44,469 bases of DNA from an uncultured bacterium (GTDB taxonomy: Bacteria > Cyanobacteriota > Vampirovibrionia > Gastranaerophilales > Gastranaerophilaceae): the NCBI GenBank assembly GCA_902803265.1, contig CADCPD010000065.1, positions 1 through 44,469 on the forward strand, given 5' to 3'. This document shows, piece after piece, positions 2,817 to 42,008 of the stretch (the stretch's first letter is position 1; the number at the start of each line of letters is the position of its first letter). Both the position numbers and the translations under genes were made by a program. The notes under the pieces were generated by a model, which searched no databases, was not told where the DNA came from, and saw only the letters and a list, made by a program, of their open reading frames with translations.

Positions 2817-4622
2817 TTGTACAACATAATCATGCTGAATAAATTATTATCCAAATTGGGGTCTAGTTCGAGTGCTACTGTGGGGGTGGCAGTATCGCCA
2901 AGTATCGGATTAGAAATGATAGAAATTGATAAAAATACTAAAACTGTAAGTAAATATGCTTGCAGACCTTTGGAATATAATTATTCTACGCGTGAAATTT
3001 CAGATTACGATGAATTCAGAACGACATTAGCAGCACTTTTTGACGATTTGAAAATCCCCAGAAAGTCAAATGTTATCTTAACACTGCCAAATGTTTATTT
3101 CGGACTAATCAATTTACCTCTTATGTTTGGTGATGAAGCAGTCAGCAATGCTATTCTTTCAGAAGTAGAACAAACATATATCTTTAAAAGACAAGAACCG
3201 GTTATTGGTTGGACTAATATTATCAAACCAAATCAAAGTACTGACTCTACCGATATTTTATATTCAGCAATACAAAATAGTGCCTTGTCAGAGATTTTTG
3301 CATCTTGTGTTGAAGTCGGATGTACCATAGTTGGATTGGAAAATTCATATTTATCTTTGCTTAAGGCTCTTGATTATACAAATTCGGCAGAAGAACAAAT
3401 GGCCGATTTTGTTACATGGAACTTAATGGTAATTGGACAAAATAACTATTCTATTTTGTCAATGTCAGGGAAAAATGTCATAAGTTACTATGAAGAACCA
3501 TTAGCACTAAAATCTTTTTCCGGAGAAGAAATATATAATGCAATAATTTCTTCCTCAACACTAACACTTACAACTAATCCGGCTAATTGGCTCTATATAG
3601 TTTCAGAAACAGATATTGTATCCGCTGAAGTTCTTTCTAAAAAAATAACTTTTGATGGAAAAATTACATATTTAGAAAGTAATAAATATGTTCAAAAACC
3701 ATTAATAGAATCAGCTAGTTCAGTTATGCCTAATTTGGCATTAAAAATTACCCCTGAAATTATAGGTTCCGGTATTTATAATTTTATTGATTATCCGGTA
3801 AAATTAAATTTACTTGGTGAATTTAAACCTGATAACGTCAAAGTTGAAGTTTATCCTTCAGTAAATATAGGTAGTTTAACTGTTGAAATTTCACCATCTT
3901 TTATAAAAAAACTATCTTTATTTATCTCGATACCAATTTTACTTATTATTTTATTAGCTTTTATAATCTTAAATGTTTTAAACAATAAACAAATAGCAGA
4001 ACAAGCATCATTGAGTTCTGAGTTAGAAGCAAAACAAGCTGAAATGAAAAAATATGACGCAATTAAAGTTGATACTTTTGATGAAAAGACAGAAATGTCT
4101 TTGATAAACGCTTACAACAAAGAAAAATTAATATATTATTCTGCTATGGGTTTAAGTATTCCGGCAAAGACATGGATTACTCAATTTAAAATAACAAAAA
4201 TGGGAAAAGTTTATATAAGTGGTAAAACTTCCAGATTAGAAGATGTTTATAATTTTTATAGAGATTTAAAAATGTCTGTAATTAATTCAGACTTAAAAGT
4301 TTATACGCTTGAAACCATAGAGAATGATGATAGTGAAAGTACAAAAAGGCCTAAATTTTATAGTTTTGAAATCACGAATATGGAAGATGCTGATATCGTA
4401 GCGATGAAAGAATATAAAGATTATAAAAAAGATCAAAGAAGTCAAAATCCTACAAATGCAATGAACGAACAAGATATTCCTGCTGCACCTGCCGCAACAA
4501 ATCCTGACGGAACACCGGTACAACCAGATCCGAATGCACCACCTCCTGCTCCTGGAGAAAATAACGAAAATCCTTTCAGTAAAGGACTTCCTCCTAATCT
4601 TGAAAAGATAGAAAGTTTTTAA
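2817..4622 (+). CDS. Type IV pilus assembly PilM-PilN fusion-like protein with Pro-rich C-terminal tail
   Basis: The N-terminal ~350 aa is actin-like and PilM-like (VGVAVSPSIGLEMIEID start). A single TM helix follows (LSLFISIPILLIILLAFIILNVL), then a coiled coil and a PilN-like domain (TWITQFKITKMGKVYISGKT). The tail reads PAAPAATNPDGTPVQPDPNAPPPAPG. The track start at 2817 is TTG; an ATG at 2832 is an alternative. Confidence 0.65.
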   Translation: MYNIIMLNKLLSKLGSSSSATVGVAVSPSIGLEMIEIDKNTKTVSKYACRPLEYNYSTREISDYDEFRTTLAALFDDLKIPRKSNVILTLPNVYFGLINLPLMFGDEAVSNAILSEVEQTYIFKRQEPVIGWTNIIKPNQSTDSTDILYSAIQNSALSEIFASCVEVGCTIVGLENSYLSLLKALDYTNSAEEQMADFVTWNLMVIGQNNYSILSMSGKNVISYYEEPLALKSFSGEEIYNAIISSSTLTLTTNPANWLYIVSETDIVSAEVLSKKITFDGKITYLESNKYVQKPLIESASSVMPNLALKITPEIIGSGIYNFIDYPVKLNLLGEFKPDNVKVEVYPSVNIGSLTVEISPSFIKKLSLFISIPILLIILLAFIILNVLNNKQIAEQASLSSELEAKQAEMKKYDAIKVDTFDEKTEMSLINAYNKEKLIYYSAMGLSIPAKTWITQFKITKMGKVYISGKTSRLEDVYNFYRDLKMSVINSDLKVYTLETIENDDSESTKRPKFYSFEITNMEDADIVAMKEYKDYKKDQRSQNPTNAMNEQDIPAAPAATNPDGTPVQPDPNAPPPAPGENNENPFSKGLPPNLEKIESF

Positions 4623-4637
4623 TAGGTAAAAAAAATT

Positions 4638-5222
4638 ATGCAAAAATATTTCAATATGTACAGAGAATCTATATTATTTGTAATACTTGCCATAGTTTTA
4701 TGTTATGCAGCTATTGGGCAGCTCAAACCTAAAATTAATGATTACAATTCTGTGCATAATGATATTGCACAGAAAAAAGCTTCTATTGATCAATTAAATG
4801 CCCAACTACAAACTGCACAACAACAAATGGCAAGACTTGAAAAGGCAAGAATTGCAAACAGTATGGTTAATAAAACTATTTTTCAGCCAAGAAGTTTATC
4901 TTTGGATAATGAAGCCGGATATAGTGTTTTATTCAATGACATTTTTGAAATGACTAAAGCAAATAAAATCAAAACTTATTCTATTCAATATGAATATAAT
5001 CCTACAGATGATCCTTTTGCCGCAGCTAATAAAGGTTATAATGTCTGTCTTTTAAAAATGAAGCTTATTGGCAGTTTTAGAGATTTTGAAAATTTATTAA
5101 CTGATTTGTATAAATATCCGTATTTCATAAGTATTAGCAGTTATGATATTGTACCTTATTATAAAGATAAAAATGTTTTATTTATCAAACTTGGTATAAA
5201 AGTATATATGAAAGGTGATTAA
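4638..5222 (+). CDS. PilO-like pilus assembly protein (N-terminal TM + coiled coil + small C-terminal domain)
   Basis: 194 aa with TM helix ILFVILAIVLCYAAIG and coiled coil IDQLNAQLQTAQQQMARLEKA. It sits directly downstream of the PilMN-like gene. Assignment rests on architecture and position only. Confidence 0.45.
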   Translation: MQKYFNMYRESILFVILAIVLCYAAIGQLKPKINDYNSVHNDIAQKKASIDQLNAQLQTAQQQMARLEKARIANSMVNKTIFQPRSLSLDNEAGYSVLFNDIFEMTKANKIKTYSIQYEYNPTDDPFAAANKGYNVCLLKMKLIGSFRDFENLLTDLYKYPYFISISSYDIVPYYKDKNVLFIKLGIKVYMKGD

Positions 5223-12042: not shown

Positions 12043-12176
12043 GCTTTTATTATCACAAAAAAACAGTATTTTTCATACCCCATATTACGAATTTTTGAAT
12101 AAATCTTTAAAACGAAAATACATGTAATCCTTTAAGTAAAATTTTTTGTAAATTTAATATGGGAGGATTAATTACA

Positions 12177-12416
12177 ATGTATTCAATAATTTTATCTTTT
12201 AATCGGCCAAAAAATATTTTAACAAGTAGAGAAGAAGAGGTTTTAGTTGAGGTTGTTAAAGGTAAAAACAACGGAGAAATTGCAAATGAACTTTATATAA
12301 GTATTCATACAGCTAAATTCTATGTAGCATCTATTCTACAAAAATTTGGAGTTTCAAGACGTTCAGGGATAATTGTTAAAGCATTGCTTGAAGGTTGGGT
12401 TGAAGTTAGTCAATAA
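12177..12416 (+). CDS. Stand-alone LuxR/GerE-family helix-turn-helix protein
   Basis: LTSREEEVLVEVVKGKNNGEIANELYISIHTAKFYVASILQKFGV matches the GerE HTH pattern. The track ORF starts at 12159. The ATG at 12177 follows GGGAGG (12161-12166) and is preferred. Confidence 0.75.
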   Translation: MYSIILSFNRPKNILTSREEEVLVEVVKGKNNGEIANELYISIHTAKFYVASILQKFGVSRRSGIIVKALLEGWVEVSQ

Positions 12417-12420
12417 TATA

Positions 12421-15400
12421 TTATGCTTTTGTTTTTTTAAAAAATATATTTTCACTTAATTTATTTTTATCTATTAATATTTGTGCCTGATTTTTGAATG
12501 ATTCAGCTTTTTCGATTTCACCTTTTTGTACAAGTATTCTTGATGCTAATAAATTGAACATTATTCTCAACAATTCATTGGATTCATAATTTTTGTCCAA
12601 TAGTGCCATAGTATTTTTTGCTATACCCAAACTAACATCCAACTGACCCTGTGCAATTTTTAAATCACCTATAAAATACCACGCCAAAATAGAAGCATTT
12701 GATAATCCGTTTTGATTACCGATTTCTTTTACATTTTGGTAGATTTTGTATGATTTATTGTAATCTTCAAGAACTTTATATGAATAACCTATAAGCAGGT
12801 CACAAATTAAATCAAGTTGAGTAAGATTATTTTCTTTTGCTGATAATTTAGATTGATAGATACTTTTAGCAAACATTTTTATATCGCTGTTTACATATTC
12901 AAAAGCTTTTAATAAATTATAAATATAAGTTCCAAAAATATTTGAATCTATTAACATTTGTGGATTAATATTCAAATCATATTCTTCACCTCGCATAAAT
13001 CTTTGGAGATATATAAATAGTGAATAAGATTCCGGCAATACTTCTAATTGTTCTGCAACTTTTTTAATTAAAGGTCTTACATCTTCTGATTGGAATATTT
13101 TAGCAACACAAACATATCCTATTGTGTCAAATATTGATGAAAATACCTGTTCTTGAGGCATTTTATCTGTAATTAACAATGCTATATTTTCCGGTGTAAA
13201 TGTTGATATTAAATCTTCACCAAGAGAAATACATTCTTTTAAATTACCTATATTAAAGAATATATTTACTTTTATCAATGATACCCAGAATAAAATTTTA
13301 TTAAAGTTTTGGTCCGCAGGATTAAATGTTGATTCAGGAAGTCTTGATAATATTTTGTTTGACAATGTTATCGCTTGTGTATAATTACCTGTTCTCAAAC
13401 AACATTGCAAGATTTTATTACATAAATTTATTACCTTTTTATCTTCCATTGCATGTTCTATATTTTCCAAAACAAGTTTTGAGAAATTGTATAATTTTGT
13501 AGGAATAAATTTATACAACATGTTTGAAATATTTTCATAAATAATCATTTTGTAATCATTAATGGATTTTTGAATTTCTTCATCAGAATCTTCTTCCATT
13601 AATTTTAACAATGTCATACTGTAATTAAGATAAGAACTAAAATCTCCCAACAATAAAACGATGTTAGAAAGTTTTTTCCATACATCTTGAACTTTCTTTT
13701 TATCATTTAATATCGTATAAACATTTAAGTTTATTGGTAATGGTACATTATCATCAACAACAGTATTCAAAAGGGATTTAGCGATATCAGTTTTTTCTTC
13801 TTCGCTTAACATATCATCCATTACTGCTTTTAAAAGATTATAGTTATTGAAATGAACAACATTATTTTCTAAGTAAATATAGCCTTTTTCATCAAGTAAT
13901 CCCAAAGAATTTCCCAAATCAGGAATATTTAATGACTGTAATGTTGCAATATCAATTCTTGGTCCTAAGTAAAGCAATAAAACAAAAATATCATATGCAT
14001 TTTTATCATGCGTTAAAAATCTAAATCTGGTTTCTAATAATTTTTCTATTGTCGGAGAAAAAATTACAGAAGATTGATTTTTTATTACATATTTATCATT
14101 TTTTAGTTCAAAAATATCATTTTCAAGTAAATAATATATTGCGTGTTTTAAATATAACTGACAACCTTTTGTATACTGTGCAATTTTTTCCATGTAGAAA
14201 GAATCCAAGACTTTTGAATATAAATCTACTTCAGGAGTTATCATTTTTTCAAAATTTGAACCGCTAACCATTATTTCTGTATAATTAGGATTTGTTAATA
14301 AGAAGTGAGAATTTTTATGAAGTGAGAAATTTTCATCTGAGAATAATAACAAGTTCAAATTATACTTATCAAAATCTTTTAACAACATTTGTAATATTTC
14401 AAAAGAAGTAACATCTACTTTTTCAAAATTTTCAACATATATCAAGCAATGTTCTAATGAATTAAATAGAATTGTAAATATATTATATAGAGTATCTCTT
14501 ACATCTTCCGGATTCATTCCATTTATAGGTTGTAAATTTATTAAAGCTTTTACAACACCTGTTTTATCTAATTTTTCAAAAGTAGAAAAATCATTTTTTA
14601 CAAAATTTCTAGCCGAAATAGAGAATTTAAATAAAGATGATAAAAGTTCATAGAAAAACCCATACGGTTTGTTTTTGGTATCTTCCGTACAAGTTATTTT
14701 AACAACTCTGTTACAAGTACCCTCTTTCAGCACTACGTTTGGAATATCTTTTGATAACGGATAGAATTTTTTATTCGTTTTTACTGAAATTATATTCTTA
14801 GAACTATTTTTAAGTAAAGATAAAATACTTTCTTTTAAATCACCAGATTCAATTTTTTTAAATTCACAAACTTGTTCATCAAAATTAAGTTTTTTAATAT
14901 TATGAATAATTGCATCATCTGTCTTCATTTCAGAATCAGCATCAATATCCTCTAATGAAAGTTGTTTTAATCTTTCTCTTAATTTATCATTTTTAGAAGT
15001 ATCTTCTTCTTCTTTAGGAACAGTAATATATTTTTTCAAATCCAGTTCATAAAAAATTTCAAGTTTATCTTTTACAAGAACTGTTCCTAATTGTGCAAGA
15101 GATATTTTATTTCTTAAGACATCAGCCGTACTACTGTCTAACAATACTTGTAATGCATTATGATATTGTCCTTGTGATGTATTTTTATACATCATTTTTA
15201 TATTAAATCCTGATTTAAAATCTTTTGGTCTTGTATTTATATCTCTTTTTATTAATGTAAAATTGCATCTTAAAAGTGTATCGTGTGAATTATGCAATTT
15301 AATATTTAATTTCATTATTGGTTTAGCAATTTCCAAAATAAAGGAAAGAGCCCTAAATACTGATTCATCAAAAGTTTGTTCTTTATTGAATTTTATAATA

Positions 15401-15813
15401 TAAGCTTTATCTATAATTTGCCATTTTATAGCAATATTCGTACAAAATCCTGTTATAAGATTATGTAAGTTGGTTTGAAATTTTTTATATGCTACATCAG
15501 AATTAAATAAATTCTTTAATTTAGGCATATTTGGAAATTCTATTACAACACACGCAAAATTAAGAATGGTAGACTCATTTAAAGCTATACTTAAATATGT
15601 ATCCATTCCACAATTACTACAAGCTTCTGTCTGAGTTAAATTAAGTTTCCCGCAATTATGACATTTACTTAAAATAGGATAACCACATTTTATACAATTG
15701 CCTGTTTTATTTAAAGTTCCGCAAACAGGACAAGTTAACTGTAAAATCTTTTTACAATTAGGGCAAATCTTTGTATCATCAGATACTTCATGGTTACATT
15801 TTGGACATTGCAT
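12421..15813 (-). CDS. Large (1130 aa) triple zinc-ribbon / degenerate cyclase-like / Walker-A-less STAND-like / helical-repeat protein
   Basis: Six CxxC pairs lie within the first 70 aa. A cyclase-like block has non-canonical residues (VVIEFPNM, AYIIKFN, LLRCNFTL). AAA_16-like landmarks are present (KPYGFFYELL; LIYVENFEKVDVTSFEILQMLL), but no GxxxxGK[ST] occurs anywhere. The C-terminal ~450 aa is TPR-like. Domain calls were made by eye. Confidence 0.6.
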   Translation of the reverse strand: MQCPKCNHEVSDDTKICPNCKKILQLTCPVCGTLNKTGNCIKCGYPILSKCHNCGKLNLTQTEACSNCGMDTYLSIALNESTILNFACVVIEFPNMPKLKNLFNSDVAYKKFQTNLHNLITGFCTNIAIKWQIIDKAYIIKFNKEQTFDESVFRALSFILEIAKPIMKLNIKLHNSHDTLLRCNFTLIKRDINTRPKDFKSGFNIKMMYKNTSQGQYHNALQVLLDSSTADVLRNKISLAQLGTVLVKDKLEIFYELDLKKYITVPKEEEDTSKNDKLRERLKQLSLEDIDADSEMKTDDAIIHNIKKLNFDEQVCEFKKIESGDLKESILSLLKNSSKNIISVKTNKKFYPLSKDIPNVVLKEGTCNRVVKITCTEDTKNKPYGFFYELLSSLFKFSISARNFVKNDFSTFEKLDKTGVVKALINLQPINGMNPEDVRDTLYNIFTILFNSLEHCLIYVENFEKVDVTSFEILQMLLKDFDKYNLNLLLFSDENFSLHKNSHFLLTNPNYTEIMVSGSNFEKMITPEVDLYSKVLDSFYMEKIAQYTKGCQLYLKHAIYYLLENDIFELKNDKYVIKNQSSVIFSPTIEKLLETRFRFLTHDKNAYDIFVLLLYLGPRIDIATLQSLNIPDLGNSLGLLDEKGYIYLENNVVHFNNYNLLKAVMDDMLSEEEKTDIAKSLLNTVVDDNVPLPINLNVYTILNDKKKVQDVWKKLSNIVLLLGDFSSYLNYSMTLLKLMEEDSDEEIQKSINDYKMIIYENISNMLYKFIPTKLYNFSKLVLENIEHAMEDKKVINLCNKILQCCLRTGNYTQAITLSNKILSRLPESTFNPADQNFNKILFWVSLIKVNIFFNIGNLKECISLGEDLISTFTPENIALLITDKMPQEQVFSSIFDTIGYVCVAKIFQSEDVRPLIKKVAEQLEVLPESYSLFIYLQRFMRGEEYDLNINPQMLIDSNIFGTYIYNLLKAFEYVNSDIKMFAKSIYQSKLSAKENNLTQLDLICDLLIGYSYKVLEDYNKSYKIYQNVKEIGNQNGLSNASILAWYFIGDLKIAQGQLDVSLGIAKNTMALLDKNYESNELLRIMFNLLASRILVQKGEIEKAESFKNQAQILIDKNKLSENIFFKKTKA

Positions 15814-15854
15814 AAATAAATTATATCAGTTTATTTTAATAAATCAATTTTTTG

Positions 15855-15863
15855 TGCTACAAT
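15855..15863 (+). promoter_or_regulatory. Extended -10 element TGcTACAAT upstream of the MotA-like gene
   Basis: TG at 15855-15856 and TACAAT at 15858-15863, lying 24 nt upstream of the ATG at 15887. The -35 is weak. The element sits in the 73-bp divergent region shared with the 1130-aa gene. Confidence 0.35.
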
Positions 15864-15886
15864 ACCGTATAAAAGAGGGAGTTTTT

Positions 15887-16798
15887 ATGGAATATTTCAA
15901 ATATCTTCTAAATCCTGCACTAATGTTAATTTTTTTATTTTTTGCCGTTTCTGTAGGTTATTGTATTCTTAAGTATCACAAAATTAATAAACAAATGATG
16001 ATACTTTTAAATTACTTAAAAAAATTCAAAAAAAATGATTTAACGTTCAGATTTAAAGAATTTGATGACGGTTTAACTTCAAATTCTTACATTTCAAATA
16101 GTTGGACAGAATTTAGAAACACTCTTGTTTTTGATGAAAACGTAGTTCTTTCTAATGAAAAAGAAGATGTAGTGTTTGAAAATGCTTCACAAGTAGTATC
16201 TGGTATTCAAACCACAGTTGATTCTGCTTATTTCTTTAATGAAGAAATTTTAATTACTTCAAAATTAAACTACAAATTTGTGCAGGTTACACCAACTTTA
16301 TTAACAGGTATGGGGCCTTTATTTACATTTATGCATATTGCATTTGCATTTGCTAACGTTGATTTTACAACTAATGAAGCTACGATGATGACTATTTCTA
16401 ATTTGATTTCTAATATGCAAATTGCAGCTTTGTGTTCTGTTTTTGCTGTTGGTGAATCATTGATATTCTTAATGCTTGAAAGATTATTGTATAACTACAA
16501 GTGTAAACAACCTCTTTCTGAAATTCAGGATTGTTTCTATAAACTTTTTGACAGCGTTACATCTGAAAAATTCTTAATTGAATTATTAAAAACAACAAAA
16601 ATTCAAAATAATTCATTAACTAATGCAATGAAATCAATGCCTCAAAAATTTCAAGATGCACTAACAAAGAGTTTGGCCGCTGTTATGGTTCCTTATTTGG
16701 ATAACATTCTTTTCAATCTTGATAAAATAAAAGAAAATAATCCTAATAATTTTACCCAAAATGCAATAGATTCCGTTGATGATTTATTCCAACAATAA
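15887..16798 (+). CDS. MotA/TolQ/ExbB-family ion-channel protein (non-flagellar context)
   Basis: Starts at the ATG after the AGAGGGAG RBS. TM1 is ALMLIFLFFAVSVGYCIL, followed by a ~100-aa loop. TM2 and TM3 carry LLTGMGPLFTF and ALCSVFAVGESLIFLM. A ~90-aa helical tail follows. The track's longer ORF (from 15698) overlaps the divergent gene and was rejected. Confidence 0.65.
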   Translation: MEYFKYLLNPALMLIFLFFAVSVGYCILKYHKINKQMMILLNYLKKFKKNDLTFRFKEFDDGLTSNSYISNSWTEFRNTLVFDENVVLSNEKEDVVFENASQVVSGIQTTVDSAYFFNEEILITSKLNYKFVQVTPTLLTGMGPLFTFMHIAFAFANVDFTTNEATMMTISNLISNMQIAALCSVFAVGESLIFLMLERLLYNYKCKQPLSEIQDCFYKLFDSVTSEKFLIELLKTTKIQNNSLTNAMKSMPQKFQDALTKSLAAVMVPYLDNILFNLDKIKENNPNNFTQNAIDSVDDLFQQ

Positions 16799-16818
16799 AC
16801 TATATTTCAGGTGTATTC

Positions 16819-17508
16819 ATGTTTAAAAAAACAATTAACAAAACAGATTATAAAGAAGAAAATATTTTTTGGATAACAATGTCAGATTTGTTATTGGGTT
16901 TAATGATTATATTTTTAACCCTTTTCATAATGTCTATGGTTGGATTTTCTCAATCAAAATTTGCTGAAAAATCAGCCCAAATATCATTAGCCGAAAATAT
17001 GGCCGATAAATTTTCGGAAAATAAAGTCAACGTTAATATTGATAAAGTTTCAGGGTTGGTAAAAATTTCTGATCTTGAACTATTTGATACCGGTAGTTTT
17101 AAATTATCACCAAAGGGTAAAAAATATTTAGACAAATTTTTCCCAATTTATATTGATACAATTTTTTCTGATGCTGAAATTAGCAATAAAGTTGAAAATA
17201 TTGTAATAGAAGGTCATACCGATTCTCAAATGTTTAAAGGGTTAAAATCTCAAGATGAACAATATACCAAAAATCTGGAACTCTCTGCTCTTCGTGCAAA
17301 TGCAGTTGCAAGTTATGTATTTAAGACAAATTATGATAAAAAATATAGCGACAGACTTCGTAAAGTACTTATTGTCGAAGGAAAAAGTAACACAGTTCCT
17401 GTTATTGTAAATGGAAAAGAAGATTTAAATAAAAGTAGAAGAGTTGAATTAAAAATAAGAATTAAATCTAACAGTGATAAAATTGAAGATTTATTTTTCA
17501 AAAAATAG
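16819..17508 (+). CDS. MotB-like protein with OmpA-type peptidoglycan-binding domain
   Basis: N-terminal TM helix with a conserved-position Asp (FWITMSDLLLGLMIIF). C-terminal OmpA-like motifs: IVIEGHTDS, NLELSALRANAVASYV, SRRVELKI. It starts 20 nt downstream of the MotA-like gene. Confidence 0.75.
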   Translation: MFKKTINKTDYKEENIFWITMSDLLLGLMIIFLTLFIMSMVGFSQSKFAEKSAQISLAENMADKFSENKVNVNIDKVSGLVKISDLELFDTGSFKLSPKGKKYLDKFFPIYIDTIFSDAEISNKVENIVIEGHTDSQMFKGLKSQDEQYTKNLELSALRANAVASYVFKTNYDKKYSDRLRKVLIVEGKSNTVPVIVNGKEDLNKSRRVELKIRIKSNSDKIEDLFFKK

Positions 17509-19374: not shown

Positions 19375-20778
19375 ATGAAACTATCAAAATCTTTATTAGC
19401 ATTATCTGTATTAGCAATGGCTTCTTCAACAGCTATCGCAGCAGATACAAAAGTTGAAGCATATGCACACCCAACAATGTTTAATTCATCAGCAGTTGAA
19501 GTTGCTGAATCACCAAGAGGCGTTTATTTAGTTGGTGAAAAAATGTTAAAAGCAGCTCAAGATTATGCTATCGCAGGTAAAGAAAATGTATTAATAGATG
19601 CAGAATCAAAAGCATTAGCAGCAGATTTAGAAGCAATTTTAGGTAAAGCATTTGATTTAAAAACTCCTGCTTTACGTTCAGAAATGGCTCACGCTTTAGC
19701 TGAAGGTTTAGGTTTAAAAACTCCTGCAACAAGAAAATATACTTATAAAGATGTAAAAAATCACAAATTAGAATCTTACATCTACAGAGCTTTAGGTGCT
19801 AACGTAATGATTGGTTACCCTGATAAAAACTTCAGACCTGACCAAAGAATTACAAAAGCAGAAGTATTCGCTACTTTAGCTCAATTATTAACTAACACTC
19901 CAAGTTCTTCAGAATTAGGTTTATTAGCTAACAAATATGAAATGAAAGAAATTCCTAACTGGGCTATCGCTCCAACTGTAAAAGTTATGGATTCTGGTAT
20001 TTTAAACAACTTACCTGATTTAGCATCAGTTGCTAACGACAAATATTTAACAACTGAACAATTACAAAAATTAGTTGTTACTTTAAGCCACAGCAAATAT
20101 TACAACGCAGCTTACTTAGCAGATTCAGCTAATACAGCTACAGTAAGAGTTAAAATTAAAGAAAGAGTTGATGCTAGACACATTAACATTGGTGAAACAA
20201 TTTACGCTGAAACAACTGAAGCTTCAGTAGTTGCAGGTAAATCTTTCAAAGCTGGTTCTAAAGTAATCGGTGAAGTTGTTGAAGTTTCAAGACCTGGTGT
20301 TAAAAATCCTGGTTATGTAAAAGTTAAATTCAACACTATTAAAGACGGTTCAGTTAAAGCTGATTTCCCTACAAGCGTAACAAGCGCTTCAGTTGATACA
20401 GCTAAAACAACTAACTTTGTAGCTCGTTTAATTGCAACTCCTGTTTCAGCTGTTGCAAGAGTTGGCGGTACAGCTGCAAGATCAGTTTCTACAGAAGCTA
20501 TGAACATCTCTAATGATGGTGAAAGATATGTTGAAAACTGGTCAAATGCATTTGCTAACCTATTCTCATTACAACCTGTTGCAAGTTTAAGAAACGTTGG
20601 TAAATCATTCGTAACAGTTGGTTACTTCATCGCTGATACAGCTAAATTAGCAGTATCTGGTACATTCGGTGTTCTTTATGAATTAGGTGACGAAGTTAGA
20701 TACGTTATCTTACCTTCATCAACAAATGATTCAGCATTGAACCCTGGTGATGAATTAACAATCATCTACAACAAATAA
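19375..20778 (+). CDS. Secreted SLH-domain envelope protein
   Basis: Signal peptide MKLSKSLLALSVLAMASSTAIA. SLH motif: YKDVKNHKLESYIYRALGANVMIGYPDKNFRPDQRITKAEVFATLAQLL. Composition is Ala/Val/Thr/Ser-rich, unlike the neighbouring genes. It has a strong RBS (AAAAGGAGAA) and its own terminator. Confidence 0.8.
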   Translation: MKLSKSLLALSVLAMASSTAIAADTKVEAYAHPTMFNSSAVEVAESPRGVYLVGEKMLKAAQDYAIAGKENVLIDAESKALAADLEAILGKAFDLKTPALRSEMAHALAEGLGLKTPATRKYTYKDVKNHKLESYIYRALGANVMIGYPDKNFRPDQRITKAEVFATLAQLLTNTPSSSELGLLANKYEMKEIPNWAIAPTVKVMDSGILNNLPDLASVANDKYLTTEQLQKLVVTLSHSKYYNAAYLADSANTATVRVKIKERVDARHINIGETIYAETTEASVVAGKSFKAGSKVIGEVVEVSRPGVKNPGYVKVKFNTIKDGSVKADFPTSVTSASVDTAKTTNFVARLIATPVSAVARVGGTAARSVSTEAMNISNDGERYVENWSNAFANLFSLQPVASLRNVGKSFVTVGYFIADTAKLAVSGTFGVLYELGDEVRYVILPSSTNDSALNPGDELTIIYNK

Positions 20779-25081: not shown

Positions 25082-26005
25082 ATGGCTCTTTTAGAAACTT
25101 CAAAACAGTATTTAGAAATGTTTAAAACATATTTAATTGTTGAGAAAAATTTTTCTCAACATACTTTAAGAGCTTACGTGTCAGACATTTTAACGTTTTT
25201 AATATGGCTAAAAGATATTCCTTGTGAAAAAGTTAATTATACAAAACTTAGAGAATATCTCTATTTTATCCAAAAATTTGACTATAAAAAAACTACAGTT
25301 GCAAGAAAACTTGCCTCTGTCAGAACTTTTTATAAATTTTTATACAAAGAAAAAATAATGGAGATAAATCCTGCTGTAAATTTAAATTCTCCAAAACGCC
25401 CAAAATCTTTGCCAAAATTTTTAACACAAGATGAAATGGAAAAGATTTTGAATAACGTAAAAATGGATACACCTGCGGGTTACAGAAATAAAGCAATATT
25501 AGAACTTCTTTGGGCAACAGGAATGCGTATCAGCGAATTAAGCGGACTCAATTTTGGAGATTTAAATCTTGAAAATAATGAAATTAGAGTTTTTGGTAAA
25601 GGGGCTAAAGAAAGAATTGTTCTTGTTACAGATAGAGCAAAAACTTATTTGCAAAGATACATAGAAAACGCAAGACCTCTGATTGCTAAAGGTTTTCGTT
25701 TAGAAGAAATAACCGAGTCAACTCCTGTATTTATAAACAATACAGGGTATCGTCTTCAAAATAAAACCGTTAGAAACGCTATTAAAAATGTCGTTGAAAA
25801 TATTGAACTTCCTAAAAGAGTAACACCTCACATGTTCAGACACAGTTTTGCGACAAAATTAATTGAAAATGGAGCAGATTTAAGGGTTGTTCAAGAACTA
25901 TTGGGTCATGCCAGTATTTCTAATACACAAATTTATACTCACATTAGCACAAAGCGGTTACAAGATGTATATGATGCTGCTCACCCGAGAGATTCCCTTG
26001 ATTAA
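25082..26005 (+). CDS. Tyrosine recombinase, XerC/XerD family
   Basis: N-terminal SAM-like core-binding domain (FSQHTLRAYVSDILTFLIWL). Catalytic motifs: ATGMRISEL (Arg), HMFRHSFAT (HxxR), LGHASISNTQIYTH (His and Tyr). 307 aa. Confidence 0.88.
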   Translation: MALLETSKQYLEMFKTYLIVEKNFSQHTLRAYVSDILTFLIWLKDIPCEKVNYTKLREYLYFIQKFDYKKTTVARKLASVRTFYKFLYKEKIMEINPAVNLNSPKRPKSLPKFLTQDEMEKILNNVKMDTPAGYRNKAILELLWATGMRISELSGLNFGDLNLENNEIRVFGKGAKERIVLVTDRAKTYLQRYIENARPLIAKGFRLEEITESTPVFINNTGYRLQNKTVRNAIKNVVENIELPKRVTPHMFRHSFATKLIENGADLRVVQELLGHASISNTQIYTHISTKRLQDVYDAAHPRDSLD

Positions 26006-40989: not shown

Positions 40990-41511
40990 TTATTTTTCAA
41001 CCGTTTTTTTAGGCATTGGACAAGCTTTATTTTTTCTTGCTTTTTCCATTTGTTTTTTATGATCTTTTTTTATTTTTTCAAAAGTTTTCTTTTGCTTTGG
41101 AGTTAATTGAGATTCAAAGAAGTTCATATCTTCTTGTCTGATTTCATTTGCTTGTTTTCTCAATTCTCTCATTTCTTTTTTTATTGTAGTTATTTGTTCA
41201 ACTTTTTGATCATCAGTTAATTTTGTTGATGATTGAATAACTTTGATTTTTGTTCTGTTTTTGTCCATTTGTTCAAAAATCGGTTTCATTTTTTCACGGC
41301 TGGCATTACGATTTTCATCTAATTTAGCTTTTTGTTCATCTGTTAAATTTAATTTTGAAAAATCAGGTGGAGGTAATTTAGGACCATGCATTTGACCGCC
41401 ATGGCATGGAGGTTCTTTTGGTGGCATTCCGCCTTCATTAGCTTGAACTGTTGATGCTGTTACTGTTGATAAACCTAATATACATGCTAATAATAAACAA
41501 AGTTTTTTCAT
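40990..41511 (-). CDS. Periplasmic Spy/CpxP/ZraP-family (LTXXQ motif) protein
   Basis: Signal peptide MKKLCLLLACILGLSTVTASTVQA. Three LTXXQ motifs are present (LTDEQKAKL, LTDDQKVEQ, LTPKQKKTF) in a Lys-rich helical protein. Confidence 0.75.
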   Translation of the reverse strand: MKKLCLLLACILGLSTVTASTVQANEGGMPPKEPPCHGGQMHGPKLPPPDFSKLNLTDEQKAKLDENRNASREKMKPIFEQMDKNRTKIKVIQSSTKLTDDQKVEQITTIKKEMRELRKQANEIRQEDMNFFESQLTPKQKKTFEKIKKDHKKQMEKARKNKACPMPKKTVEK

Positions 41512-41513
41512 TT

Positions 41514-42008
41514 TTAATCTCCTAATAATTCTCTTAACTGTTCCATCAAAACTTTTCTTGCGTTGTAAAGTCTTGATTTAATTGTTCCTTCAGGAACATT
41601 TAGTTTTTGTGCTATTTGCTCGTAGCTGTTACCTTCAAATTCGTACAGGATTACAACCTGTTTTAATTTTTTCGGTAAATTATCTACGGCTTTAAGTATC
41701 AGTTTTTGACGCAATTTCTTATCCAGAATTTTTTCGGGATATTCAGAGCTCTTAACGTTTGAAATTACATCTTCGTCTGATATTTGGTTTGAGGAAGTTT
41801 TATAATCTTTTGATTTTAAAAAATCCTTACAAACATTTGAAGCTATTGTTGAAATCCATTGAGAGAACTTATTCTGTTCTTTGTAAGTATCCAGACGTCT
41901 CCAGATTCTTAAAAATATTTCTTGTTCTAAATCTTCGTTTGGAGTTCCGACAAATCGCTTTATTATTGATTGAATTTTATATTTATTTTGTTCTATTATG
42001 TTTTTCAA
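41514..42008 (-). CDS. ECF-type sigma-70 family RNA polymerase sigma factor
   Basis: Region 2: DLEQEIFLRIWRRLDTYKEQNKFSQWISTIASNVCKDFLK. Region 4: LPKKLKQVVILYEFEGNSYEQIAQKLNVPEGTIKSRLYNARK. The TTG start lies 1 nt after the upstream stop. Confidence 0.88.
   Translation of the reverse strand: MKNIIEQNKYKIQSIIKRFVGTPNEDLEQEIFLRIWRRLDTYKEQNKFSQWISTIASNVCKDFLKSKDYKTSSNQISDEDVISNVKSSEYPEKILDKKLRQKLILKAVDNLPKKLKQVVILYEFEGNSYEQIAQKLNVPEGTIKSRLYNARKVLMEQLRELLGD

What the first reader, a model, noticed from the sequence alone, without database searches (positions are those of the whole stretch)
15887..17508. Orphan MotA/ExbB-like + MotB/OmpA-like ion-channel pair outside any flagellar, Tol or Ton context (Zorya-like core?)
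The 303-aa ORF has one N-terminal TM helix and a ~100-aa loop. Two closely spaced TM helices then carry LLTGMGPLFTF and ALCSVFAVGESLIFLM, the channel signature of the MotA/TolQ/ExbB family. A ~90-aa helical tail follows. Twenty nt downstream, the 229-aa ORF has a MotB/ZorB-type TM helix with an Asp at the proton-binding position (FWITMSDLLLGLMIIF). It also has a full OmpA-like peptidoglycan-binding domain (IEGHTDS, LSALRANAV, SRRVELKI). The three-TM topology differs from four-TM flagellar MotA. No flagellar, Tol-Pal or TonB genes lie within 44 kb. Stator-like pairs detached from motility form the core of Zorya anti-phage systems and of other ion-driven envelope machines. This pair has only a short tail and no ZorC/D/E-like partner. 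Instead it sits head-to-head with a 1130-aa zinc-ribbon/STAND-like gene. I do not recognise this arrangement as a described system.
Basis: partly seen in the sequence, partly recalled or inferred. Interest (0 to 1): 0.7.

Follow-up and report, generated by a model that had tools for sequence, protein, structure and literature searches.

The report
Tail-less Zorya-type motor pair, core gene
Two adjacent genes encode a membrane ion-driven motor related to the ZorA/ZorB core of the Zorya anti-phage system, but it lacks the long signalling tail and the effector genes and is inherited as a housekeeping gene pair across a whole order of gut non-photosynthetic cyanobacteria, so it is probably not a stand-alone phage defence.

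Summary
Window 15887-16798(+) and 16819-17508(+) encode a 303-aa ZorA-like and a 229-aa ZorB-like protein.

- **Closest relatives:** Zorya ZorA and ZorB, by PADLOC, solved-structure sequences and Foldseek. Flagellar MotAB, TolQR and ExbBD are much more distant.
- **Ion path:** every key residue is invariant (ZorA-like P136, T147, S184; ZorB-like D23; OmpA-type peptidoglycan motifs).
- **Not a Zorya system:**
  - ZorA-like stops about 100 aa after TM3, whereas genuine ZorA has a ~500-aa tail that defence requires.
  - No ZorC/D/E-like gene or other defence gene lies nearby.
  - The 44-kb window is ordinary housekeeping chromosome.
- **Distribution:** relatives occur in 296 species genomes, in the 80 loci fetched mostly titled Melainabacteria/Gastranaerophilales. 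ZorB-like is adjacent in 80/80 fetched loci. ZorA-like divergence tracks that of a housekeeping neighbour (r = 0.85).
- **The 1130-aa neighbour:** zinc ribbons, a cyclase-like domain, a STAND-like domain without a P-loop, and TPR repeats. It is also widely conserved in these genomes. Head-to-head linkage survives in three of four deep clades and was lost in the largest.

Best reading: a constitutive, peptidoglycan-anchored, proton-driven 5:2 motor with a short output stub ending in a conserved VDDLF. Its partner is unknown. This is a new variant of a known kind.

The parts
15887..16798 (+). ZorA-like A subunit, 303 aa. It has three TM helices and a membrane-proximal cytoplasmic domain, but only a ~100-aa tail.
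   Evidence: ORF. PADLOC ZorA1 3.5e-21, covering profile positions 34-290 of 699. Solved ZorA 8QYK/8QYD 4e-18, aligned to residues 24-256 of 729. Foldseek top six hits are all ZorA. Precomputed Pfam PF28082 ZorA-like_t1.
15911..15973 (+). TM1 of ZorA-like (aa ~9-29).
   Evidence: Hydrophobic stretch in the sequence. Falls within helix 10-46, where the AF2 model's 10-residue blocks average pLDDT 66-85.
16286..16354 (+). TM2 of ZorA-like (aa ~134-156). Carries invariant P136, T140, G141, G143, P144 and T147, the ion-filter Thr.
   Evidence: Invariant columns in 56 homologues. T147 and P136 align to EcZorA T147 and P136. Their roles are described in PMC11946911.
16412..16483 (+). TM3 of ZorA-like (aa ~176-199). 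Carries invariant S184, the ion-filter Ser.
   Evidence: S184 aligns to EcZorA S184.
16484..16795 (+). Short cytoplasmic tail (aa ~200-303). The tail-base motif SEKFLIELLK is conserved and is homologous to EcZorA ~215-256. The remaining ~470 aa of a Zorya tail are absent.
   Evidence: Alignment ends at EcZorA residue 256. Family lengths cluster at 299-335 aa. Long-tailed ZorAs appear only at E >= 6e-30.
16775..16795 (+). C-terminal VDDLF(QQ), a near-universal [VI]-D-[DE]-L-F end of the family. It is a candidate docking peptide.
   Evidence: D298, L300 and F301 are invariant in 56 sequences.
16819..17508 (+). ZorB-like B subunit, 229 aa. One TM helix with the proton-carrying Asp, then an OmpA-type peptidoglycan-binding domain.
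   Evidence: PADLOC ZorB1 PDLC00609 2.5e-51, full length. Solved ZorB 8VVI 5e-17 and 8QYD_F 7e-9. Pfam OmpA 8.5e-10. Adjacent to ZorA-like in 80/80 fetched loci, with gaps of -4 to 49 nt.
16885..16887 (+). Codon of ZorB-like Asp23, equivalent to EcZorB Asp26.
   Evidence: Alignment. At least 98% conserved across 80 family members. Its essential role is described in PMC11946911.
17080..17463 (+). OmpA-like peptidoglycan-binding domain of ZorB-like (aa 88-215). Contains GHTDS, N-L-x-L-S-x-x-R-A and SRRVEL.
   Evidence: N, L and R align to the EcZorB peptidoglycan-binding residues N152, L155 and R159.
15814..15886 (.). 73-nt divergent intergenic region. Contains the ZorA-like ribosome-binding site (AAGAGGGAG) and promoter-like hexamers on both strands.
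   Evidence: Promoter-like sites are no more frequent than in shuffled sequence, so this is only suggestive.
12421..15813 (-). Divergent neighbour of 1130 aa. Domains: about four zinc ribbons, a class-III-cyclase-like domain, a STAND-like domain without a P-loop, and a TPR array. A functional link to the pair is unproven.
   Evidence: Pfam DZR and TPR. AF2 pLDDT 84. Foldseek: 6MFV STAND-TPR 2.8e-10, Avs3, adenylyl cyclases, MalT. Walker A absent in 58/59 homologues. Directly adjacent in 23 loci, plus two with a ~1-1.3 kb insertion.

Best explanation
The two genes encode a ZorAB-type 5:2 inner-membrane complex: five ZorA-like subunits around a ZorB-like dimer.

**How it most likely works**
- The ZorB-like OmpA domain anchors the complex to peptidoglycan.
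- Protons pass the ZorA-like T147/S184 filter to ZorB-like Asp23. This flow drives rotation of the ZorA-like pentamer around the fixed ZorB-like dimer.
- Zorya has a 70-nm tail that signals to nucleases. This family keeps only the tail base, which in E. coli ZorA is needed for motor assembly.
- Beyond the tail base lies a short helical stub ending in a conserved acidic-hydrophobic VDDLF. Five copies of this tip are the likely output surface for an unidentified cytoplasmic or membrane partner.

**Biological role**
- The pair is a vertically inherited, lineage-wide gene pair of Gastranaerophilales/Melainabacteria.
- Its role is most likely constitutive and envelope-linked (envelope-status sensing or energy transduction), not a self-contained anti-phage system.

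**Shown versus inferred**
- Shown: homology, conserved ion-path and peptidoglycan-binding residues, tail loss, distribution and genomic context.
- Inferred: 5:2 stoichiometry, proton specificity, rotation, the role of VDDLF and the non-defence function.
For: **Homology to ZorA/ZorB**
- PADLOC ZorA1 3.5e-21 and ZorB1 2.5e-51.
- Solved ZorA 4e-18 and ZorB 5e-17.
- The Foldseek top six hits are all ZorA, at about 2e-6 to 3e-5. TolQ and ExbB score 0.02 or worse; MotA and PomA score 0.18 or worse.

**Functional residues**
- Invariant P136, T147 and S184 sit at the same positions as in EcZorA.
- D23 equals EcZorB D26, and the N/L/R peptidoglycan-binding residues are conserved (roles from PMC11946911).

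**Tail**
- The alignment stops at EcZorA residue 256 of 729.
- At 50% clustering the family has about 11 full-length representatives of about 300 aa. A score gap then separates them from ZorAs of roughly 400-880 aa, mostly 550-700.
- Other short hits look like fragments.

**Core-gene behaviour**
- About 1015 protein clusters, of which the 120 listed are 286-330 aa, and 296 species genomes.
- ZorB-like is adjacent in 80/80 fetched loci.
- ZorA-like identity co-varies with that of the neighbouring DUF711 gene (r = 0.85) and of ZorB-like (r = 0.89).
- Neighbours are dnaB, DUF711 and rpmG-secE-nusG-rplK-rplA.
- The window is housekeeping with flat GC.
- No PADLOC hit in the 11 neighbouring ORFs tested: the 1130-aa gene, those without a clear Pfam assignment and a few others.
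- No copy of the short family on plasmids or phages.

**Zorya requires a long tail**
- All tail truncations abolish defence, and long tails occur in all Zorya subtypes.
Against: - No experiment or complex model supports the stoichiometry or the function.
- The AF2 monomer model is only moderate (pLDDT 62; tail below 55).
- A lineage-wide defence system cannot be excluded on distribution alone.
- Effectors could be encoded elsewhere. I could not inventory a whole genome.
- Head-to-head linkage with a STAND-like/TPR protein persists across three deep clades. That hints at a functional module I cannot explain.
- I do not know what fraction of all Gastranaerophilales species the 296 genomes represent.
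Confidence: 0.6

Rival explanations
1. It is a new Zorya subtype. The short-tailed ZorAB senses phage attack at the envelope and activates the divergently encoded 1130-aa zinc-ribbon/STAND-like/TPR protein as its cytoplasmic arm.
For: - ZorA and ZorB are the closest homologues.
- The 1130-aa gene is head-to-head in the window. It is adjacent or within ~1.3 kb in every determinable locus of three deep clades, down to about 45% ZorA-like identity.
- Its fold resembles STAND proteins, including the anti-phage Avs3.
- The TPR array could bind the conserved VDDLF C-terminus (inference).
Against: - The pair is lineage-wide and the 1130-aa gene is widely conserved. Both sit in housekeeping contexts.
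- They are unlinked in the largest clade. There the 1130-aa gene sits next to a GT5 glycogen-synthase-like gene.
- No Walker A motif in 58/59 homologues and no nuclease or other effector domain.
- No PADLOC hit for the 1130-aa protein.
- Zorya function needs a long tail.
Confidence: 0.12
2. It stands in functionally for TolQR/Pal or ExbBD. A PMF-driven motor would energise an outer-membrane or cell-division process in a lineage whose envelope is organised differently (SLH-anchored outer membrane).
For: - The 3-TM A-subunit topology and fold are shared with TolQ and ExbB.
- The pair behaves as a core, vertically inherited gene pair.
- An SLH-domain protein lies 2 kb away. Melainabacteria have cyanobacterial-type SomA/B anchoring (PMC4040986).
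Against: - No TolA/TonB-like transducer, Pal or TonB-dependent receptor in the window or in conserved neighbours.
- The B subunit is MotB/ZorB-type with an OmpA domain, unlike TolR and ExbD.
- Sequence and fold similarity to TolQ and ExbB is far weaker than to ZorA.
- Whether these genomes also carry canonical TolQR or ExbBD was not tested.
Confidence: 0.15
3. It is the flagellar stator of Gastranaerophilales.
For: - The B subunit has weak MotB_plug and MotB/MotS family hits.
- Some Gastranaerophilales are flagellated.
Against: - The A subunit has 3 TM helices and lacks the MotA cytoplasmic torque-generating domain.
- Pfam MotA_ExbB does not hit. Foldseek to MotA and PomA gives E of 0.18 or worse.
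- The pair is present in MEL.A1 (L057). MEL.A1 is not among the three genomes that Soo et al. reported as having complete flagellar gene sets.
- Only about 25% of human-gut Gastranaerophilales genomes encode full flagella, yet the pair occurs in 296 species genomes.
- No flagellar genes are among the conserved neighbours.
Confidence: 0.03

Closest known systems
ZorA/ZorB core of Zorya anti-phage systems (E. coli type I, PDB 8QYD; Shewanella type I, 8VVN; Sulfuricurvum type II, 8VVI)
   Same: - Best sequence, profile and fold matches.
- A subunit with 3 TM helices and a membrane-proximal cytoplasmic domain.
- Conserved W-x-E-F motif at the Ca-site position.
- P136, T147 and S184 conserved, and the tail-base motif retained.
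- The B subunit aligns over its full length, with the essential Asp and an OmpA-type peptidoglycan domain joined directly to the TM helix.
- A-then-B operon order.
   Different: - About 100 aa follow TM3, against about 500 aa in Zorya ZorA.
- No ZorC/D, ZorE or ZorF/G genes.
- NCBIfam ZorA and ZorB scores are far below the curated cut-offs.
- The pair is chromosomal, lineage-wide and vertically inherited, not patchy.
- ZorB-like has no cysteines, so it lacks the E. coli ZorB disulfides.
TolQ-TolR and ExbB-ExbD 5:2 motors
   Same: - 3-TM A-subunit topology.
- Weak fold similarity (Foldseek E 0.02-0.1).
- Housekeeping, chromosomal character.
   Different: - Pfam MotA_ExbB does not hit.
- The B subunit carries an OmpA-like peptidoglycan-binding domain, which TolR and ExbD lack.
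- No TolA/TonB partner nearby.
Flagellar MotA-MotB / PomA-PomB stators
   Same: - B subunit with a single TM Asp and an OmpA-like peptidoglycan-binding domain.
- A/B operon.
   Different: - The A subunit has 3 rather than 4 TM helices.
- No torque-generating cytoplasmic domain.
- Present in a genome not reported to have a complete flagellar gene set.
- Fold match is very weak.

Membership tests
Zorya anti-phage system (types I-III) | ZorA motor domain homologous to ZorA (3 TM helices plus a membrane-proximal cytoplasmic domain) | tested here: met
   PADLOC ZorA1 3.5e-21. Solved ZorA 4e-18. Foldseek top six hits are all ZorA.
Zorya anti-phage system (types I-III) | Long C-terminal ZorA tail; present in all subtypes, and every truncation abolishes defence | tested here: not met
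   The protein ends at aa 303, and the alignment covers only EcZorA 24-256 of 729. Family lengths cluster at 299-335 aa. The requirement comes from PMC11946911.
Zorya anti-phage system (types I-III) | ZorB with the essential TM Asp and a peptidoglycan-binding domain | tested here: met
   PADLOC ZorB1 2.5e-51, full length. D23 equals EcZorB D26, with conserved N/L/R peptidoglycan-binding residues.
Zorya anti-phage system (types I-III) | Adjacent effector genes (ZorC+ZorD, ZorE, or ZorF+ZorG) | tested here: not met
   No PADLOC hit for the 1130-aa neighbour or for the 10 other window ORFs tested. Conserved neighbours in relatives are dnaB, DUF711 and ribosomal genes.
Zorya anti-phage system (types I-III) | NCBIfam curated score cut-offs for ZorA/ZorB families | tested here: not met
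   ZorA_2 scores 65.9 bits against a cut-off of 100. ZorB2 scores 71.1 against 400.
Zorya anti-phage system (types I-III) | Anti-phage activity | not testable with these tools
   Requires phage challenge of an expressing host.
Flagellar stator MotAB/PomAB | 4-TM MotA with a cytoplasmic torque-generating domain; matches MotA_ExbB | tested here: not met
   Only 3 hydrophobic helices. Pfam MotA_ExbB does not hit at E <= 1. Foldseek to PomA and MotA gives E of 0.18 or worse.
Flagellar stator MotAB/PomAB | Co-occurrence with a flagellar apparatus | tested here: not met
   No flagellar genes in the window ORFs annotated. The pair is in MEL.A1, which is not among the three genomes reported with complete flagellar gene sets (PMC4040986). 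Only ~25% of human-gut genomes of the order have full sets.
TolQR / ExbBD | A subunit matches MotA_ExbB; B subunit is TolR/ExbD-type without an OmpA domain; TolA/TonB partner | tested here: not met
   No MotA_ExbB hit, and the B subunit has an OmpA domain. No TolA/TonB-like gene in the window ORFs annotated or in conserved neighbours.
5:2 ion-driven rotary motor superfamily (works like) | A5B2 assembly with a conserved B-subunit Asp and an A-subunit polar filter | tested here: inconclusive
   The residues are conserved. Stoichiometry could not be modelled, because only monomer prediction was available.

The most novel reading that the evidence does not exclude
A ZorAB-type motor has a non-defence, housekeeping life. 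In Melainabacteria a tail-less ZorAB would be a constitutive envelope-coupled rotary transducer. Its five VDDLF tips would engage the TPR array of the P-loop-less STAND-like zinc-ribbon protein, its ancestral head-to-head neighbour. That protein is itself linked to a glycogen-synthase-like gene, so envelope or PMF status would be coupled to cytoplasmic physiology. Zorya defence systems would then be derivatives, or the ancestors, of such a housekeeping sensor.
Probability: 0.12. Interest if true: 0.8.

Novelty: new variant of a known kind. Interest (0 to 1): 0.55.

Why it matters
ZorAB is the only 5:2 motor whose output is a cytoplasmic signal rather than work at the envelope. What it senses and how it couples to partners are still open questions.

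This family is a natural minimal version. It keeps the motor and the tail base and has lost the 70-nm tail and the nucleases. It is fixed in a whole bacterial order, not scattered like defence genes.

That has three consequences:
- ZorAB-type motors may have functions outside immunity.
- It offers a compact construct for structural and biophysical work on ZorAB activation.
- It gives a comparative handle on how Zorya arose, either by elaborating the tail of a housekeeping motor or by domestication of a defence motor.

It also adds an uncharacterised conserved envelope component to Gastranaerophilales, an uncultured gut lineage of current interest.

Tried and rejected
- **Generic Pfam MotA_ExbB assignment:** no hit at E <= 1.
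- **Filing as Zorya via NCBIfam:** all scores are far below the curated cut-offs.
- **Flagellar stator:** rejected on topology, fold rank and presence in MEL.A1, which is not among the genomes reported with complete flagellar gene sets.
- **Defence-island context:** no PADLOC hits in the 11 neighbouring ORFs tested, housekeeping Pfam content and flat GC.
- **Mobile-element origin:** tblastn against plasmids found only genuine long zorA1 in Klebsiella/Escherichia at 27% identity. Phages gave nothing.
- **Other short ZorA-like families:** the 250-330-aa hits at E of about 1e-14 to 1e-17 end abruptly inside the domain and look like fragments.
- **DUF711 as a partner:** it lies directly downstream in 62/81 loci, but it is absent from the window and its clade. 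I treat this as synteny.
- **AF2 monomer of ZorA-like:** only a moderate model (pLDDT 62), so tail geometry is not interpretable.
- **Promoter and terminator scan:** nothing above shuffled background.
- **Literature:** five searches found no description of tail-less ZorAB or of ZorAB in Melainabacteria. A sixth attempt was rejected by the search tool.
Full report
**1. Observation**

The ORF table confirms a 303-aa ORF at 15887-16798(+). Its ATG follows AAGAGGGAG, and homologues align from this Met. A 20-nt gap with a CAGGTG ribosome-binding site follows, then a 229-aa ORF at 16819-17508(+). A 1130-aa ORF at 12421-15813(-) is transcribed divergently across a 73-nt spacer.

The window has flat GC of about 25-33%. 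It contains one tRNA and no other Rfam match.

**2. What the two proteins are**

*Profile searches*
- PADLOC models give ZorA1 at 3.5e-21, but covering only positions 34-290 of a 699-position profile. They give ZorB1 (PDLC00609) at 2.5e-51 over the full length.
- NCBIfam returns only ZorA and ZorB families at the top, all far below their curated cut-offs.
- The local Pfam copy does not hit MotA_ExbB at all. It hits OmpA (8.5e-10) and, weakly, MotB_plug in the B subunit.
- The collection's precomputed annotation labels the A subunit PF28082 'ZorA-like_t1'.

*Solved structures*
- A family profile matches E. coli ZorA (8QYK/8QYD) at 4e-18, aligning ZorA residues 24-256 of 729.
- The B subunit matches type II ZorB (8VVI) at 5e-17 and E. 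coli ZorB at 7e-9.

*Predicted structure*
- An AF2 monomer model is moderate (pLDDT 62; the TM regions average about 80-87).
- Foldseek still ranks six ZorA chains first, at about 2e-6 to 3e-5. TolQ and ExbB score 0.02 or worse, and PomA and MotA 0.18 or worse.

*Residue mapping*
- P136, T147 and S184 of the window protein align with EcZorA P136, T147 and S184. Hu et al. identify T147 and S184 as the ion-selectivity filter and P136 as a functional kink (PMC11946911).
- All three are invariant in 56 homologues.
- ZorB-like D23 aligns with the essential EcZorB D26. The N-L-x-L-S-x-x-R motif aligns with the peptidoglycan-binding residues N152, L155 and R159.
- D23, GHTDS and SRRVEL are at least 98% conserved across 80 family members.

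The pair therefore has everything needed to work like a peptidoglycan-anchored, probably proton-driven, 5:2 motor. The stoichiometry itself is inferred from homology.

**3. What is missing**

- Homology to ZorA ends at residue ~256, and the protein ends at 303.
- Hu et al. report that long tails occur in all Zorya subtypes and that four different tail truncations abolish defence. They also report that deleting the whole tail (223-729) prevents motor assembly.
- The window family keeps exactly the tail base. This is the highly conserved S226-E-K-F-L-I-E-L-L-K motif, aligned to EcZorA ~225-234.
- It lacks the remaining ~470 residues.
- It ends in a near-universal [VI]-D-[DE]-L-F.

**4. Distribution**

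- A search of 5.8 billion proteins found about 1015 clusters. The 120 listed are 286-330 aa, and the few that carry a name are 'hypothetical protein' from bacterium/Gastranaerophilales records.
- An exhaustive profile search of 1.84 billion representatives shows about 11 full-length ~300-aa representatives at E <= 1e-80. A gap follows to E of about 6e-30, where ZorAs of roughly 400-880 aa (mostly 550-700) begin.
- Other short hits end abruptly and look like fragments.
- In one-genome-per-species GTDB contigs, 296 stretches encode a relative. The 80 loci fetched are mostly titled Melainabacteria or Gastranaerophilales, or are evidently mis-binned or untitled.
- Plasmids carry only genuine long zorA1 at 27% identity. 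Phages carry nothing.

**5. Neighbourhood**

- ZorB-like follows ZorA-like in 80/80 fetched loci, with gaps of -4 to 49 nt.
- A DUF711 gene follows directly in 62/81 loci (the 80 fetched plus the window), but not in the window's clade. The 1130-aa gene appears upstream and divergent in 28/81.
- Other neighbours are housekeeping: dnaB upstream in MEL.A1, and rpmG-secE-nusG-rplK-rplA beside the operon in L085.
- Pairwise identity of ZorA-like correlates with that of DUF711 (r = 0.85), ZorB-like (0.89) and the 1130-aa protein (0.89). This fits vertical co-divergence.
- The window itself encodes a sigma-70, SpoU methylase, NadA, an oligopeptide ABC transporter, MgtC, a CDF transporter, an SLH protein, PyrH-like kinase, RRF, CdsA, RNase III, Rpe, a class I aminoacyl-tRNA synthetase, an amidase, SurE and similar genes.
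- None of the 11 neighbouring ORFs tested hits a PADLOC model, apart from a trivial HTH match.

This is not a defence island.

**6. The 1130-aa neighbour**

- It has full-length homologues at 33-83% identity. Few carry a name; those that do include a Gastranaerophilales MAG and 'Clostridium sp. CAG:967', a genome whose ZorA-like locus lacks it.
- With a 59-sequence alignment AF2 gives pLDDT 84.
- Foldseek finds a STAND-TPR protein (6MFV, 2.8e-10), Avs3, class III adenylyl cyclases (TM-score normalised to the target ~0.65) and MalT.
- Walker A is absent in 58 of 59 members. It is replaced by a conserved T-C-[YT]-[DE]-[ED]-M-K-x-x-P-Y-x-F-F. A Walker-B-like hhhhE-[ND]-F-[ED]-K-[IV]-D is invariant.
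The protein looks like a non-NTPase scaffold without an effector domain.
- In the gut clade it lies elsewhere, followed by a GT5 glycogen-synthase-like gene. The same gene follows it where it is adjacent to ZorA-like (cluster 7).

*Tree of the linkage*
- A neighbour-joining tree of ZorA-like plus ZorB-like shows the head-to-head arrangement in three of four deep clades.
- Two loci in those clades carry a ~1-1.3 kb insertion between the genes.
- One large monophyletic gut clade has lost the arrangement.
- In the window's clade both outer links (DUF711 and GT5) were broken while the head-to-head link survived.
- This is suggestive, but it is compatible with ancestral synteny broken once at a divergent promoter region.

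**7. Flagellar and Tol/Ton alternatives**

- A 2026 preprint reports complete sets in about 25% of 62 human-gut genomes.
- The pair is present in MEL.A1 (L057) and in 296 species genomes.
- Together with the 3-TM topology and the fold ranking, this rejects a flagellar stator.
- A Tol/Exb-like envelope role cannot be excluded. No TolA/TonB-type partner is linked, and the B subunit is of the MotB/ZorB type.

**8. Verdict**

Membership in Zorya fails on three tested features: the long tail, the effectors and the curated cut-offs. It also fails on behaviour, because the pair is a lineage-wide, vertically inherited gene pair in a housekeeping context.

The best-supported explanation is a constitutive tail-less ZorAB-type motor whose short VDDLF-tipped stub engages an unknown partner. 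A dedicated defence module with the STAND-like neighbour remains a minority possibility.

I found no published description of such a family. A Pfam 'ZorA-like' label already exists for these proteins. I rate it a new variant of a known kind, of moderate interest.

Noticed in passing
window 12421-15813 (-): The 1130-aa protein is a widely conserved, lineage-specific pseudo-STAND. It has about four zinc ribbons, a class-III-cyclase-like domain that keeps only the first acidic metal ligand, a NOD-like domain with no Walker A (58/59 homologues) but an invariant Walker-B-like motif, and a TPR array. In relatives it is followed by a GT5 glycogen-synthase-like gene.
   Followed up: partly
L057 11589-13765; L085 6563-8287: In 62/81 loci a DUF711 (UPF0210) gene follows ZorB-like directly, sometimes overlapping it. 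One or two paralogous ~110-160-aa proteins with no Pfam hit come next. They share the motif YNNLKVYM...PH..V...G.L..DER..W. Their function is unknown, and they are absent from the window.
   Followed up: partly
loci L004, L011, L027, L029, L040, L042, L044, L046, L079: Contigs carrying this Melainabacteria-type gene pair are titled Methanobacteriaceae archaeon, Muribaculaceae, Anaerovoracaceae, Alistipes senegalensis, Bacteroidaceae, Acutalibacteraceae, Clostridium sp. CAG:967 or Brachyspira sp. CAG:484. These are probably mis-binned or misnamed MAG records.
   Followed up: no
window 19375-20778 (+): A 467-aa protein with a signal-peptide-like N-terminus and an SLH domain. This fits cyanobacterial SomA/B-style anchoring of the outer membrane to the cell wall.
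   Followed up: no
window 2817-4622 (+) and 4638-5222 (+): Adjacent 601-aa and 194-aa ORFs with no Pfam or PADLOC hit.
   Followed up: no
window 12159-12416 (+): An 85-aa stand-alone GerE/LuxR-type HTH gene lies between the 1130-aa gene and the peptide ABC operon. A full-length copy at this position appears only in the window's own clade (L002-L007); L043 and L047 have weak partial matches about 8 kb upstream.
   Followed up: no
window 25082-26005 (+): A 307-aa tyrosine recombinase (Phage_integrase plus SAM-like N domain) lies among housekeeping genes. It is probably XerC/D-type and not a mobile-element integrase. No other mobile-element genes were seen nearby.
   Followed up: no
window 40990-42008 (-): An ECF-type sigma factor (164 aa) is followed by an LTXXQ/Spy-like periplasmic protein (173 aa). 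This is a possible envelope-stress module in the same window.
   Followed up: no
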